A stretch of DNA of 64,000 nt, from positions 2,101,503 through 2,165,502 of the forward strand of contig CAJINV010000011.1 of assembly GCA_905178155.1 (NCBI GenBank), given 5' to 3'. The notes below the pieces were generated by a model that was not told the DNA's origin, ran no database searches, and saw nothing but the letters and a program-made list of their open reading frames with translations. The translations under genes were made by a program, and so were the position numbers. The stretch is from Amoebophrya sp. A120 (taxonomy: Eukaryota > Protista > Dinoflagellata). This document shows, one piece after another, positions 3,869 to 61,700 of this stretch (positions within the stretch are counted from its first letter, which is position 1; each line of letters opens with the position of its first letter).

Positions 3869-6002
3869 TCAGAGTGGCTTGACTATCTGGCGAAAGGTGA
3901 GATTTATCCGCTCCTCCGCGACCTTTGCGCGCTTCGGGAGGCTGTGCTGCCACAAGTGCTGGATGGGTCCGTACATCAGGAGTAAGCTCCCGGACTCTAG
4001 GGTAACCGCCGCTTTTTTCCCGTGGTCGGCAATTTTGCGGAACGAGCTATCCCGGCGTGGCAAAATGTTCTCACCCGATGCCCAATCCGATTGAAATAGC
4101 TACAAACGAAGAAGTTATAATTTGGTGCGTTGTGCATACGAAACTTGATCTTCCCGCCGTCGTGTGCTAAGCGGAGACTCGCAAGTAGGGCCGCACTTCT
4201 CTTTGCACATTTATGTCGTATTAATATAGCGTTGTAATATTGGCCAGCACGTACTGACATCAAATTATAAAAGCAATGCTCACACAGCAGCACCGGGTGA
4301 GAACGTTACTTTGCCGCAGGATAGTGAAACTCGCGCGGAGCGCCGAAGGACACGGATGCGATGGTGGGGTTTTTGCCGTACACCGCCTCGTCGTCGCTGT
4401 GCCAGCCCTGATATTGCAAGGAAGAATACCCCCTCCGCATATCAAAACGGAAATCTGTGGTGCGGATTTGTGGTCACAAATCAGCTTTGTCATGCTAGAA
4501 GGGAAAAGATGCGGGCTGTAGTGCTGGGTCGCGTGGGAAAGCCTTGCATCGTCAGCATGAGAGGAGGCAGCTGGAAGTGGGAAACTGCATGACAAATTGC
4601 CTGCAAATGAGGCCACAGCTGCGGCTCTTGGCCTTCTAGCAATACAAGTCGATTTGTGTACTCAAATACAGCATCAGAAATTTCGTGTTCGATATGGGGA
4701 GGGGGGATTTTTCCTTTTGATACCTGACTGTCCGCTCCCGATCGGTACCGGTTTAACAGGACGCTGTTGAACGAGGCCGTCTCCGTATGAGAGTGCACAA
4801 CTCCCCCTCTCCCTCATTTGTAATGCAAAACCCCAAATGCCGTTGGTGTATTGTGGCAGTGTTTGCATGACGAATTCCGGAAGCCAAAGCACGCACGACA
4901 TTCGGTGCGTAAACTTGTCATGCACAGGCTCCAATTGTGTTGGTGTTTGTGATGCTGTTCATGCCATACAAATGAGGGGGAGGGGGAGTTGCGCACTCTC
5001 ATACTCAGGTACTAGCGGTGCTGCTGCTGGCTGCCCCCCAGGGGACTGCTTCACGTTCACATCGACTTTAATACTATTCTGCGCTGCAGAAGATATCAAA
5101 ACAGAACTCTTACCGCCCATAGTAGAAATACTGCCAGAACAACCAGAGCTCGTTCTTTGCGCACCAGATGAACTACAACTTCTTTCCCCCTCCATCCTCT
5201 CCAGTACGGTCTTTCTCAGCTCCTCCAGGATTGGCGGGAACAGCCGCGCGTGCAGCAGTCGCCCAGAGTATTTGTAGCTGTGGTCCCCAAAGTAGCAGGT
5301 CAATCGGGGCTCGGGAATCTCCTTCCCAAACAGCTTCACGCTCCCCTGCGCCCACGGCATCTGCTGCTGCAGCTTGCGCAAAAGCTCGTCTGGGTTCTCG
5401 AAGGCGCGCGGGAGGTACAGCACCGCTATTGTGAGCAAAAACGTCCCCGCCCCAGTGTCAAGATGGGGAATCTGCTAGACAAATCCACAATGACAAGTTT
5501 GGCCTCGGAGTGTGGTCCTGTTTGGTTAGTGCAGCAGCATCACAGATCTAGTATATCATGCTGAGACGAGCATCACAAATTTCAAAACACCGCTAGAAAA
5601 CGCTTCTCATGGGGCTGCTCCGCATGACAAACATTTTGTGCATGCAGATTTGCATCACAACTATGGAGTGGGAACGTTTCTACATAGGATATCCGCGCTC
5701 CCTTCCCCATCCAGGAGGAACACCTCGTTTGGAGGAATCGCCACGACTGCGCGAACAGAATCCTTCTGGCCGATCTTGCCCCGATCTTGCTTTCCTGCTC
5801 TCTTTTGCACCCCGCCCGGATTGACTGCTTGTGCCGCGGACGAGCTTGCTTTTGATGTCCTTGTTGGGAACGAGCCGCCCACCTGGAGGTTCTTTGTCGC
5901 GGCAGACTTAGGCTCATCTCCCGGAGCCTTCTTGCGCACGGTCGTACTCGGGCCCGGGAGGAGGGTTCCACTCGCGACTTTCCCGCCCCGTTTTGAGGTC
6001 AT
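3869..6002 (-). CDS. alkB: AlkB-family 2OG-Fe(II) dioxygenase (ALKBH2/3-like), 5 exons split by 4 introners
   Basis: Approximate exons 6002-5692, 5426-5004, 4785-4723, 4411-4324, 4047-3869. Spliced motifs: EPRLTCYFGD, FNSVLLNRYRSGADSQGWHSDDE (HxD), IASVSFGAPR, GSLLLM, WQHSLPK, RINLTFR. Confidence 0.93.
4048..4323. mobile_element. Old introner (F2-like), TSD eroded
   Basis: TATCCCGGCGTGGCAAAATGTTCTCACCCG ... CGGGTGAGAACGTTACTTTGCCGCAGGATA. Flanks CGAGC/GTGAA no longer match, but removing element+5 nt restores REFxFRK. Confidence 0.8.
4412..4722. mobile_element. Introner, family F3
   Basis: TATTGCAAGGAAGAATACCCCCTCC ... GGAGGGGGGATTTTTCCTTTTGATA; perfect TSD CCTGA. Confidence 0.95.
4786..5003. 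mobile_element. Introner, family F4
   Basis: TATGAGAGTGCACAACTCCCCCT ... AGGGGGAGTTGCGCACTCTCATA; TSD CTCCG/CTCAG. Confidence 0.93.
5427..5691. mobile_element. Introner, family F2
   Basis: TATTGTGAGCAAAAACGTCCCC ... GGGAACGTTTCTACATAGGATA; TSD ACCGC/TCCGC. Confidence 0.92.
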
Positions 6003-58701: not shown

Positions 58702-61700
58702 ATGGCCTCCCTGGTCTCGTCGCGTGCGCGTTCCATGTCGCGCTTCGTGCGACAGACAACGACAAGGAGCAGCAGAAATCCACTAGCAGTGCCACCCGTG
58801 GTGCCAGTTGTTCCTGGAGCAATCCATAGAGCCTTCAGCACCGCGACACAAACTACTACACATGGCGAAAACACAGCGGGCAGGGTCGTACTTACGGGCA
58901 ACTCGCCGGCCTCGAGCAGCACCGCGCCGAGACGGATAGTAGCTGGCTCAACGACATCCGCGGGAGCAGGCCACCAACAGGGCCCGACCGCCATTCCCAT
59001 AACGCCGAAACTACTGGAGGAGCTGGGTCTCACATCGTCGAACTCGTCGGGTCTGAATACGCAAAACCTCGCAAAGCAGGCAAACCAGCTGGCCGAGCGG
59101 ATTTTCTCCAAGATACCGAAGGGGTTCGGTGCTTTCTATCCCAAGAAGTCTTCAAGCGGAGAAAAGGGGGATGGAAAGGTACAGGGTTTGTTCATGTTTT
59201 ATGCATGGGGAAGGGGTTGTGATCATTTCGGATGAGAAGTTCTTTGGCTCTTGTTTTTTGCGTTTTTGAAATAGGATATTGCCAGAGCATTGCGTAGCGA
59301 AGCAAAGCGATCTGTCAGCAGTGCCAACTACATCCACGGAGACGAAGTTAACTAAAAATACAACACCACAGGAATCCTCTTCCAACACCACCGAAACTTC
59401 GGAAGACAAGAAGGACGACAAGGAAGGCAGTGGCGGCGACAATGGGGGCAAACCCGACCCGCCCACCGCGATACTGCAAATTGCGGTCCTGACCTACTTT
59501 CTCTACTACGTCCTCCGCCCGGACACGACTCCAGAGATAACGTTCCAAGAGCTGGTCAACGATTTTCTCCGCTATGGCTACATCGACCGCCTCCAGGTGG
59601 TCAACAAAGAAACCTGTCGAGTGTTGCTGCGGAACGATGTCACACTGCCACAGAATCTAGGTACAGGACATTTTTTGATCATTTCAATAATTCATTATTC
59701 ATAATTGCATCTTCGAAAGTACAGAAATGATCGCACGGCGGTACAACTATCCTGCTCAGCCGGGTACTGCTATCATGGAATGTACTTACTTTCTCATGAA
59801 ACTCTAAATAAGCCACGAAAAAAATTTTGCAGTGAAACGCGTCGGCGAGGGCAAGGAATTCCTGGTCCAACTGGGCAGCCCGGAATCCTTCGAGTCCAAG
59901 GTCGAGGCCTACCAGCATTCCCTTGGTATCCACCCGCAGGACTTCATTCCCATTCAGTACGTGTCCGAACGCGACTACTGGGACGACGCGCTGCGGGCGC
60001 TCCCCTCGCTCCTTATCCTACTCCCCGCCCTGTTCCTCGCCTACTCCTACACGCGGGGCGCGGGCGGCGGCCGGTCGGGCAGCTCCGGCATGGGTGGGTT
60101 CGGCGGGGGCGGGGGGTTTGGGGGGTCGGCGCGAAACATGTTCAACATGGGCAAGGTGTTGGAAAAGGAATATCAAATGTAAAAATGTCTGGGTCTGGAA
60201 GATTGCCAGGTTTGTCATGCATATTTTGCATGACTCCTGATGTCTGTGATGCATGCCCTAGCGTCACAGATTTTGTGAGGGCTTCCTGATGCCTATACCG
60301 CATGACAAATGCTCTTTCCGTGTAGCAAAACTTGGACTCTCTTTGCTGCTCATGCAATACAGATTTTTAGAATCCAAAATCAGCATGACCAGACCCAGAC
60401 ATTTTTACAGTTGATAAGGAAACCAAATCCACGACAAAATTCACGGACGTGGCGGGGTTGAGCCAGGCGAAGATTGAGGTCACGGAATTCGTGGACTTTC
60501 TGAAGAACCCGAAAAAATACGAGCACCTCGGGGCCAAGATACCGAAGGGCGGGCTGCTGGTCGGACCCCCCGGGACGGGGAAAACTTTGCTCGCGAAAGC
60601 GATTGCGGGCGAAGCCGACAGGCCATTTTTCGCCATGAGCGGCTCCGACTTCATTGAGATGTTTGTCGGTGTGGGGCCCAGTCGCGTGCGCGACTTGTTT
60701 GCGCAAGGTACTTTTTGATCTTGGTTGCTATAGAAATAAATTGATGTTGTAGTATTCGCTGCGTGCTGTCCTCCCATCTTACTTATGGAAGTTCTTCCGG
60801 AACATCAACCATTTTTTGTGAATTACCAAAAACACAACCATTCACGACTAACCCACACAGCCCGCGAGAAAGCCCCCGCGATTATCTGGATCGACGAAAT
60901 CGACGCGGTGGGTCGCAAGCGCAACAAGGGCGGGTGGGGCGGGGGAGGGAACGACGAGAGGGAATCCACCCTGAATCAGCTCTTGGTCGAGATGGACGGA
61001 TTCAACCACAAGACCGGGGTCATCGTGCTCGCGGGAACCAACCGCGCCGATATTCTGGACAACGCGCTGACCAGGGCGGGGCGCTTCGACCGGCACATTT
61101 CGATCGACATTCCGGACATCAAGGAGCGACAGGAAATCTTCATGGTCCATTTGAAACCATTGAAACTGACTGAGGGCATGAGCCAGGAAGACGTCGCGCG
61201 ACGGTTGGCAGCGCTCACGCCAGGGTTTTCTGGTACTTAGAGACAGACTATGCTATAGATACGTTAGTTTGTGGTCACTTTAAGGATTTGCTGTGAAATT
61301 CGTCGCATCTTTTGTGTGAAGATCTCTCGTCTTGTGATGCAATTGCAAAGTATACAATCATGTAATCGTCGGACATCAACAACATTGTGCCCTTCGCACT
61401 TCTTTCTTTAAACCTAAAATCAGGCGCCGACATCGCGAACTTGTGCAACGAGTCCGCGATTCTGGCGGCTCGGCGCAGTTCCGCCACCGTCGAGCAGGAA
61501 GATTTCGAAACCGCGACGGAACGCACCCTGGGCGGGCACGCGAAGAGCAACGCCATGATGTCGCTGCAACAGAAGCGGGTAATTGCCAAACACGAGTCCG
61601 GCCACGCGGTCACGGGCTGGTTCTTGGAAAACGCCGACCCGCTGCTGAAGGTTTCAATTGTCCCACGGAGCAACGGGGCGCTGGGGTAGATGATTTGGAA

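What the first reader, a model, noticed from the sequence alone, without database searches (positions are those of the whole stretch)
4048..60416. Multi-family TAT...ATA MITEs acting as non-canonical introns in most genes
Seen: 30 elements of 162-323 bp all begin TAT, end ATA and have TIRs. TSDs are 5 bp: 19 perfect, 8 with one mismatch, 3 eroded. They fall into about 7 TIR families. Excising element+5 nt rejoins the frame, including conserved motifs (AlkB GWHSDD, ACP EEAFGV, WBP2 EFQQPIFG, AFG3 KETKSTTKF). Only 2 of 30 can be written as GT-AG. Established: inverted-repeat introners and abundant non-canonical introns are reported in Amoebophrya, but to my knowledge the excision mechanism is unresolved. 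Inference: essential genes depend on precise removal, so a splicing route exists that reads element features rather than GT-AG.
Basis: partly seen in the sequence, partly recalled or inferred. Interest (0 to 1): 0.9.

Follow-up and report, generated by a model that had tools for sequence, protein, structure and literature searches.

The report
Known Amoebophrya transposon introns, fixed cut
These are the already published transposon-derived introns of the marine parasite Amoebophrya sp. A120; the detail added here is that all seven informative junctions fit one cut position relative to each element's terminal repeats, which likely points to a spliceosome guided by an RNA hairpin instead of GT-AG signals.

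Summary
I count 31 TAT…ATA inverted-repeat elements with 5-bp target duplications (19 perfect, 8 one mismatch, 4 eroded); 20 of 20 Markov controls give none. Window exons match annotated Amoebophrya sp. A120 proteins at 99-100%. Farhat et al. 2021 described these introner elements in this organism: TAT-starting repeats, a 5-bp direct repeat example, RNA-seq support and the open splicing question. Removal of element plus 5 nt fits 14 of 15 junctions in annotated proteins and the exact length of an RNA-like contig. Added here: seven imperfect duplications all fit one register. The intron is N-TAT…ATA-NNNN, starting 1 nt before the left repeat and ending 4 nt after the right one. It works in either element orientation, shares T+2/A+3 with all 17 GT-AG donors examined, and ends in AG in 7 of 31 (background 7%). 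One row of a 2025 supplement shows the same offsets. Most likely mechanism (inferred, about 0.6): an adapted U2-type spliceosome uses the terminal hairpin to place both cuts. Main rival: a Euglena-like non-spliceosomal route. Verdict: known system, unresolved mechanism, now a sharper test.

The parts
4048..4323 (-). Element in AlkB-family gene; flanks match 0/5; fixes the cut exactly after TSD position 4
   Evidence: only 5 nt removed with k=4 fits P0001
4412..4722 (-). Element in AlkB gene; perfect TSD; reads GT-AG at the same register
4786..5003 (-). Element in AlkB gene; TSD 4/5
5427..5691 (-). Element in AlkB gene; TSD 4/5; cut at position 4 or earlier
9862..10130 (-). Element, perfect TSD; host gene not identified
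10209..10487 (-). Element, perfect TSD, same gene as 9862
13773..14025 (-). Element in CBS-domain gene; TSD 4/5; cut at position 3 or later
14081..14343 (-). Element in CBS gene; perfect TSD; the annotated protein skips this junction
14377..14592 (-). Candidate eroded 32nd element; removal with 5 nt opens a mini-exon absent from P0005 (inferred)
15298..15620 (-). Element in CBS gene; perfect TSD; GT-AG possible only at k=3
16184..16504 (-). Element in CBS gene; perfect TSD
17153..17368 (-). Element in CBS gene; TSD 2/5; cut at position 4 or later
17415..17693 (-). Element in CBS gene; TSD 4/5 (synonymous, uninformative)
17819..18069 (-). Element in CBS gene; perfect TSD
23064..23343 (-). Element, perfect TSD, 94% identical to 55251
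26964..27215 (+). Eroded element in hydrolase-like gene; cut at positions 1-4
29663..29969 (+). Element in dihydrouridine synthase gene; perfect TSD
34837..35012 (+). Element, TSD 4/5
36692..37012 (+). Element, perfect TSD
43636..43797 (+). Element in acyl carrier protein gene; TSD 2/5; RNA-like contig fixes the cut exactly after position 4
43928..44197 (+). Element in ACP gene; TSD 4/5
44279..44488 (+). Element in ACP gene; perfect TSD
45427..45679 (+).
45733..45941 (+). Element, perfect TSD; RNA-like contig piece starts at 45942
47109..47370 (+). Element in MTHFR gene; perfect TSD; contig piece starts where predicted
53091..53409 (+). Element in coiled-coil-rich gene; skipped in contig record 5
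53555..53815 (+). Element, TSD 4/5; skipped in contig record 5
54892..55165 (+). Element, TSD 4/5; contig gives cut at position 4 or earlier
55251..55530 (+). Element with 28/28 TIR, perfect TSD
55599..55849 (+). Element, perfect TSD; the paralogous copy near 57820 is empty
57483..57804 (+). Element in a duplicated 3' gene fragment; paralogues near 55575 and 56368 are empty and carry one copy of the 5-mer
60171..60416 (+).

Best explanation
These are the introner elements of Amoebophrya sp. A120, small non-autonomous DNA transposons with TAT…ATA ends and 5-bp target duplications that sit in coding exons and are removed from the transcript with five extra bases, likely by an adapted U2-type spliceosome that is predicted to use the paired terminal repeats to place both cuts. 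Shown: insertion makes a 5-bp duplication (paralogous empty sites); element plus 5 nt is absent from annotated proteins and an RNA-like contig; every informative junction fits an intron of N-TAT…ATA-NNNN. Inferred steps: (1) the 20-30 nt terminal repeats pair in the pre-mRNA and bring the ends together, standing in for U1/U2AF end recognition (U1 was not detected in A120 by Farhat et al.); (2) the 5' cut falls 1 nt before the stem, so the intron starts N-U-A, keeping U+2/A+3 of the host's GUA donors and dropping the need for G+1; (3) the 3' cut falls 4 nt after the stem, possibly measured from the stem end or from a branch A in the terminal AUA, with the repeat's U-run at -19 to -15 as a possible pyrimidine tract; (4) because four duplicated bases stay on the upstream exon and the fifth comes from the downstream copy, the original coding sequence is restored whatever the target and whichever way the element faces.
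For: Organism: window exons are 100%, 99% and 100% identical to proteins named Amoebophrya sp. A120. Published match: A120 repeats start with TAT, seven variable bases, then an A-run; a 5-bp direct-repeat example is in Fig. S19's legend; my 62 termini show the same profile. Removal: 14 of 15 junctions tested against P0001, P0005, P0006, P0007 fit only 5 nt removed. Contig record 5 of run X1 skips 721 nt = 324 + 266 + 131, i.e. two elements plus 5 each and one GT-AG intron. Register k (TSD bases kept upstream): 4048 =4, 43636 =4, 17153 >=4, 13773 >=3, 5427 <=4, 54892 <=4, 26964 1-4; the piece-end convention was checked on 2 GT-AG introns. All 9 leading A120 non-canonical end pairs in Farhat Table S4 have N+T donors. 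Spliceosome-like traits: 17 of 17 GT-AG donors read GTA; AG ends 7 of 31 introns at k=4 against 7.1% background, P=0.005 uncorrected; 4412 is GT-AG at the same register; element remnants lie inside GT-AG introns; Farhat found most spliceosomal proteins and U2, U4, U5, U6 in A120; a tunicate U2 spliceosome handles non-canonical transposon-derived introns (PMC13326754 abstract). Symmetry: both orientations relative to the transcript occur in 5 of 6 groups tested. Ends are predicted to pair (>=14 expected pairs) in 30 of 31.
Against: No lariat, circle, branch point or factor was observed; the choice of spliceosome is inference. No raw read crossing an element junction was obtained: X9 and X10 covered none, and X1 is only guessed to be RNA. 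Annotated proteins come from transcript-to-genome alignments and may share their data with X1. Only 7 junctions are informative and 2 are exact. Intron +1 is G in only 10 of 31 (background 0.32), and 24 of 31 do not end in AG, so the usual pairing of first and last intron bases is often lost. The AG excess could instead reflect the exon end (the upstream copy has the same 7 of 31) or transposase target choice. The outermost T:A pair has predicted probability below 0.5 in 7 of 31, and the fold had no shuffle control. TIR mismatches show no clear bias to G-U on the transcribed strand (37 against 30). Branch-like YTRAY with A at -7 occurs in only 6 of 31. Farhat Fig. 3's legend calls splice sites variable relative to the hairpin. 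One annotated junction (14081) does not follow the model because P0005 skips that stretch.
Confidence: 0.6

Rival explanations
1. A non-spliceosomal, structure-measuring route (endonuclease plus ligase, or a separate particle) removes the hairpin, as proposed for Euglena nonconventional introns.
For: Euglena introns need a paired motif with a 3-nt 5' spacer and a 5-6 nt 3' spacer (PMC12501133) and are reported to leave as circles without lariat form (PMC11282704 passage). The A120 offsets (1 and 4) have a similar longer 3' overhang. Terminal dinucleotides are nearly free, orientation does not matter, and U1 was not detected.
Against: T+2/A+3 shared with 17 of 17 canonical donors, an AG excess, and a GT-AG member at the same register. 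Farhat reports repeats in 15% of A120 canonical introns, while hybrids are rare in Euglena. No purine rule at the downstream exon start (19 of 31).
Confidence: 0.25
2. A spliceosome recognises the terminal sequence itself (TAT/ATA and the A/U run) through a protein or a divergent snRNA; the hairpin is a by-product of transposon structure.
For: TAT/ATA and the A-run at positions 11-15 are conserved across families while positions 4-10 often mismatch between arms. No clear G-U bias on the transcribed strand. A shared internal 8-mer is about 28-fold enriched in elements.
Against: Long-range end pairing is predicted in 30 of 31. The conservation could come from transposase binding.
Confidence: 0.12
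3. The elements are cut out of the DNA before expression, like ciliate internal eliminated sequences.
For: Precise loss of element plus one direct repeat resembles pointer-guided excision (recalled).
Against: Contigs of the DNA-like run X5 run through or into elements at even depth (records 8-11, 14). The removed piece takes 1 base from one repeat and 4 from the other in transcript direction on both strands, which a DNA process has no reason to follow. Farhat's junctions are RNA-seq versus genome. The joints table was truncated (998 rows not shown), so a minor excised DNA form is not excluded.
Confidence: 0.02
4. RNA editing creates GT-AG ends, or nearby GT-AG pairs remove a different interval.
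For: An in-frame GT and AG pair lies within 20 nt of the ends for 25 of 31 elements.
Against: Annotated proteins and contig lengths fit only element plus 5 where tested; 6 of 31 have no such pair. Farhat puts possible editing at 2-4% of boundaries.
Confidence: 0.01

Closest known systems
Introner elements of Amoebophrya sp. A120 (Farhat et al. 2021, PMC7789003; Gozashti et al. 2025, PMC12130899)
   Same: Same organism; TAT-starting inverted repeats with an A-run; 5-bp direct repeat example; about 240-nt non-canonical introns; many families; unresolved splicing.
   Different: Nothing in kind. The text I read calls the splice sites variable relative to the hairpin; here seven junctions fit one register (1 nt / 4 nt). 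Dataset S2 row fam160 of the 2025 paper lists the same offsets, while most other rows seen do not.
Euglena nonconventional introns (PMC12501133; PMC11282704)
   Same: Proposed MITE origin, paired ends, TSD-like repeats, free terminal dinucleotides, fixed spacers with a longer 3' side.
   Different: Euglena motif is N3-CDG…CHG-N5-6 followed by a purine; A120 is N-TAT…ATA-N4 with no purine rule, and grades into GT-AG introns.
Fritillaria borealis non-canonical introns (PMC13326754)
   Same: Transposon-derived majority of non-GT-AG introns handled by a modified U2 spliceosome.
   Different: Tunicate keeps U1 and uses duplicated U2AF; A120 has no detected U1, and its signal is symmetric.
Micromonas and Aureococcus introners (as summarised in PMC11282704 and PMC7789003)
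   Same: MITEs with TIRs and TSDs that become introns using the duplicated target.
   Different: Those use canonical sites, one from the element and one from the duplication; here both cuts lie in the duplications and need no GT or AG.

Membership tests
A120 introner elements (Farhat 2021) | Occurs in Amoebophrya sp. A120 | tested here: met
A120 introner elements (Farhat 2021) | Inverted repeat at both intron ends starting TAT, seven variable bases, then >=3 A | tested here: met
   profile of 62 termini
A120 introner elements (Farhat 2021) | 3-5 nt direct repeat over the exon/intron boundaries | tested here: met
A120 introner elements (Farhat 2021) | Removed from transcripts | tested here: met
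   14 of 15 annotated junctions; contig of run X1; no raw junction read
A120 introner elements (Farhat 2021) | Repeated in families | tested here: met
   20 of 31 cluster within the window; many other copies laid from X5. Assignment to a published family number was not tested.
MITE | Short, non-coding, with TIRs and a TSD made on insertion | tested here: met
   162-323 bp; empty paralogous sites
MITE | Mobilised by a cognate autonomous transposase | not testable with these tools
   No whole genome held. Farhat found no transposase in A120; Gozashti describes an integrase-like TIR family 38, link untested.
U2-type spliceosomal intron | GT/GC-AG ends | tested here: not met
   1 of 31 at the fixed register, 2 of 31 at any register
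U2-type spliceosomal intron | Branch point and lariat | not testable with these tools
   Motif scan inconclusive: YTRAY in the last 40 nt of 13 of 31 elements and 4 of 17 canonical introns
Euglenid nonconventional intron | N3-CDG…CHG-N5-6 then purine | tested here: not met
   N-TAT…ATA-N4; purine 19 of 31
Euglenid nonconventional intron | Ends brought together by base pairing | tested here: met
   predicted in 30 of 31, no shuffle control
Euglenid nonconventional intron | Released as a circle without lariat | not testable with these tools
   needs intron RNA sequencing
Ciliate-type eliminated DNA | Absent from expressed somatic DNA | tested here: inconclusive
   X5 contigs keep the elements; joints table truncated

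The most novel reading that the evidence does not exclude
A120 carries a second, non-spliceosomal splicing machine that measures a fixed 1-nt/4-nt offset from an RNA stem, evolved convergently with the Euglena system, so that any TAT…ATA transposon making a 5-bp duplication becomes a scar-free intron in either orientation.
Probability: 0.25. Interest if true: 0.85.

Novelty: already known. Interest (0 to 1): 0.35.

Why it matters
The elements and the puzzle are published, so the finding is not new. How more than 60% of this parasite's introns are removed without GT-AG or a detectable U1 is still open in the papers I read. A single cut register explains why the published splice-site table looks random: both ends are just bases of the duplicated target. 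It also explains why insertion is harmless at any site and in either orientation. It gives exact predictions for lariat or circle junctions and for reporter mutants, and a rule for correcting A120 gene models.

Tried and rejected
No whole genome is held, so nothing genome-wide was counted. The run search listed no holder on record as RNA. Raw RNA runs X9 and X10 had no reads across an element junction in 42600-62500; X10 supported only two GT-AG introns near 61686 and 62024. The joints table was filled by repeats of X5, so junctions were read from piece ends and record lengths. Read-level junctions for 3700-18300 were not obtained; those rest on annotated proteins. Rfam found nothing in the window, so snRNA complementarity was not tested. 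The G-U bias test (37 against 30) and the branch-motif scan (13 of 31 against 4 of 17) were inconclusive. Pfam on 11 proteins showed no transposase; the GC-rich non-genic stretches were not scanned. One of 18 candidate GT-AG introns could not be placed and was left out of the donor count. In one search the frame chosen for 44279 was not the coding frame; the element has stops in all three frames, so the count stands. Earlier-findings look-ups returned nothing. Literature searches showed no paper resolving the A120 mechanism; subscription papers (e.g. Roy et al. 2023), figures, and files 13-14 of PMC12130899 were not seen and could state the register.
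Full report
Observation. Scans of the window find 31 elements of 162-323 bp that begin TAT, end ATA and carry terminal inverted repeats. The flanking 5-mers match perfectly in 19, with one mismatch in 8, and are eroded in 4. The window has 26 candidates with TIR >=13/20 and TSD >=4/5; 20 of 20 Markov controls have none. A scan with no TAT/ATA requirement returned 20 hits, of which 18 are listed elements, one a 1-nt shift and one an internal repeat. 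The duplication is made on insertion: a duplicated gene end gives reciprocal empty sites for 57483 and 55599. BLAST groups 20 elements into 4 clusters and leaves 11 single.

Organism and prior work. Three exon queries hit proteins named Amoebophrya sp. A120 at 100%, 99% and 100% identity. In Farhat et al. 2021 (PMC7789003; seen: abstract, passages, sections 10, 11, 12, 16, 25, and supplement passages, Table S4 rows and part 4; no figures) more than 60% of RNA-supported A120 introns are non-canonical. Its repeats start with TAT, seven variable bases and an A-run, and direct repeats are 3-5 nt with a 5-bp example. U1 was not detected and the splicing mechanism is left open. My 62 termini have that profile. 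Gozashti et al. 2025 (PMC12130899; seen: passages, the header and 21 of 58 A120 rows of Dataset S2) classify most of those rows as TIR DNA elements of unknown family. Reviews repeat this (PMC11282704, PMC11453091, passages). Other Amoebophrya strains use GT-AG (PMC12005148, passages).

Removal. Retention gives a stop or frameshift in 31 of 31. Against four database proteins, 14 of 15 junctions fit only when element plus 5 nt is removed; the exception, 14081, lies in a stretch that P0005 skips. These gene models come from transcript alignments. In one search, run X1 (guessed RNA; it skips GT-AG introns) has a 2,535-nt contig whose two listed pieces are 193 nt apart in the record and 914 nt apart in the window. 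The 721 nt skipped equal 324 + 266 + 131: elements 53091 and 53555 with 5 nt each, plus one GT-AG intron. Its 119-nt tail is consistent with loss of 54892 and 55251. Contigs of the DNA-like run X5 keep the elements. No raw read crossed an element junction, and reads were laid only on 42600-62500.

Cut register. Where the two 5-mers differ, the product shows which copy supplied each base. With k the number of duplicated bases kept upstream, annotated proteins give 4048 =4, 17153 >=4, 13773 >=3, 5427 <=4, 26964 1-4 and 43636 3-4. Contig piece ends give 43636 =4 and 54892 <=4; the end convention reproduced two GT-AG controls. All seven junctions, on both strands, share k=4. The intron is therefore N-TAT…ATA-NNNN. 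This accounts for Farhat's Table S4, where all nine leading A120 end pairs have N+T donors. It is not wholly unrecorded: row fam160 of Dataset S2 lists splice 23, element 24-361, splice 365, TSD 5, and Farhat's Fig. S23 legend places the repeats 1-5 nt from the sites. I did not see it stated as a rule in the text I read; unseen figures, supplements and subscription papers may state it.

Mechanism. Family members face both ways relative to the transcript in 5 of 6 groups, so the signal is symmetric. Ends are predicted to pair in 30 of 31, although the outermost pair is weak in 7 and no shuffle control was run. Three things lean to the spliceosome. All 17 GT-AG donors examined read GTA, so element introns keep U+2 and A+3. 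AG ends 7 of 31 against 7.1% background (P=0.005, uncorrected; the upstream copy shows the same count). Element 4412 is GT-AG at the same register, and remnants lie inside GT-AG introns. The 3' repeat also gives a U-run at -19 to -15 (T in 71-94%). A tunicate precedent exists (PMC13326754; abstract and section 30). Against: +1 is unbiased, most ends are not AG, there is no clear G-U bias (37 against 30) and no consistent branch motif. The Euglena code, a paired motif with 3-nt and 5-6-nt spacers and unknown factors (PMC12501133; abstract, sections 8 and 12), is geometrically similar; diplonemids have paired non-canonical introns too (PMC12621601, abstract). I put an adapted hairpin-guided spliceosome at 0.6, a non-spliceosomal route at 0.25, sequence-only recognition at 0.12, and DNA excision or editing at 0.03 together. 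All mechanistic steps are inferred.

Verdict. A real feature, correctly interpreted, and already described in this genome. It is a member of the A120 introner class. It is not a canonical U2 intron by its ends and not a euglenid intron by its motif, though it may work like either. The added value is the fixed register, resting on seven junctions, which makes the open question directly testable. Interest 0.35.

Noticed in passing
window, all 31 elements: The 8-mer TGTNATGC (either strand) occurs 79 times in 8,179 nt of elements and 19 times in 55,821 nt outside, across all families; several outside copies sit in GT-AG introns. Could be a transposase or splicing-factor site.
   Followed up: partly
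window 11777-11832 and 12150-12190: Decayed element sequence (89% to element 43636 over 57 nt) inside a GT-AG intron of the proteasome subunit gene, and two motif copies in the next intron.
   Followed up: partly
window 14377-14592: Eroded element whose removal opens a mini-exon that the annotated protein P0005 lacks; the gene model may be incomplete.
   Followed up: partly
window 2190-2375: Truncated relative of element 4786 with only one end left.
   Followed up: partly
window 55536-56220, 56325-56380, 57435-58220: Three copies of one gene's 3' end, with reciprocal empty and filled element sites.
   Followed up: yes
window 1-1942: Satellite of about 96/200 nt period, 19 copies; no Rfam match.
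   Followed up: no
window 28350-28728: Array of an 18-nt unit, about 15 copies, then a looser 33-nt repeat.
   Followed up: no
window 24050-26250, 48400-50100, 56460-57400: Non-genic stretches with GC-rich ends, the first with an AT-rich core; possibly larger mobile elements. No X1 depth at 48576-49239.
   Followed up: no
window 30000-30032: A candidate GT-AG intron of only 33 nt, 30 nt after element 29663.
   Followed up: no
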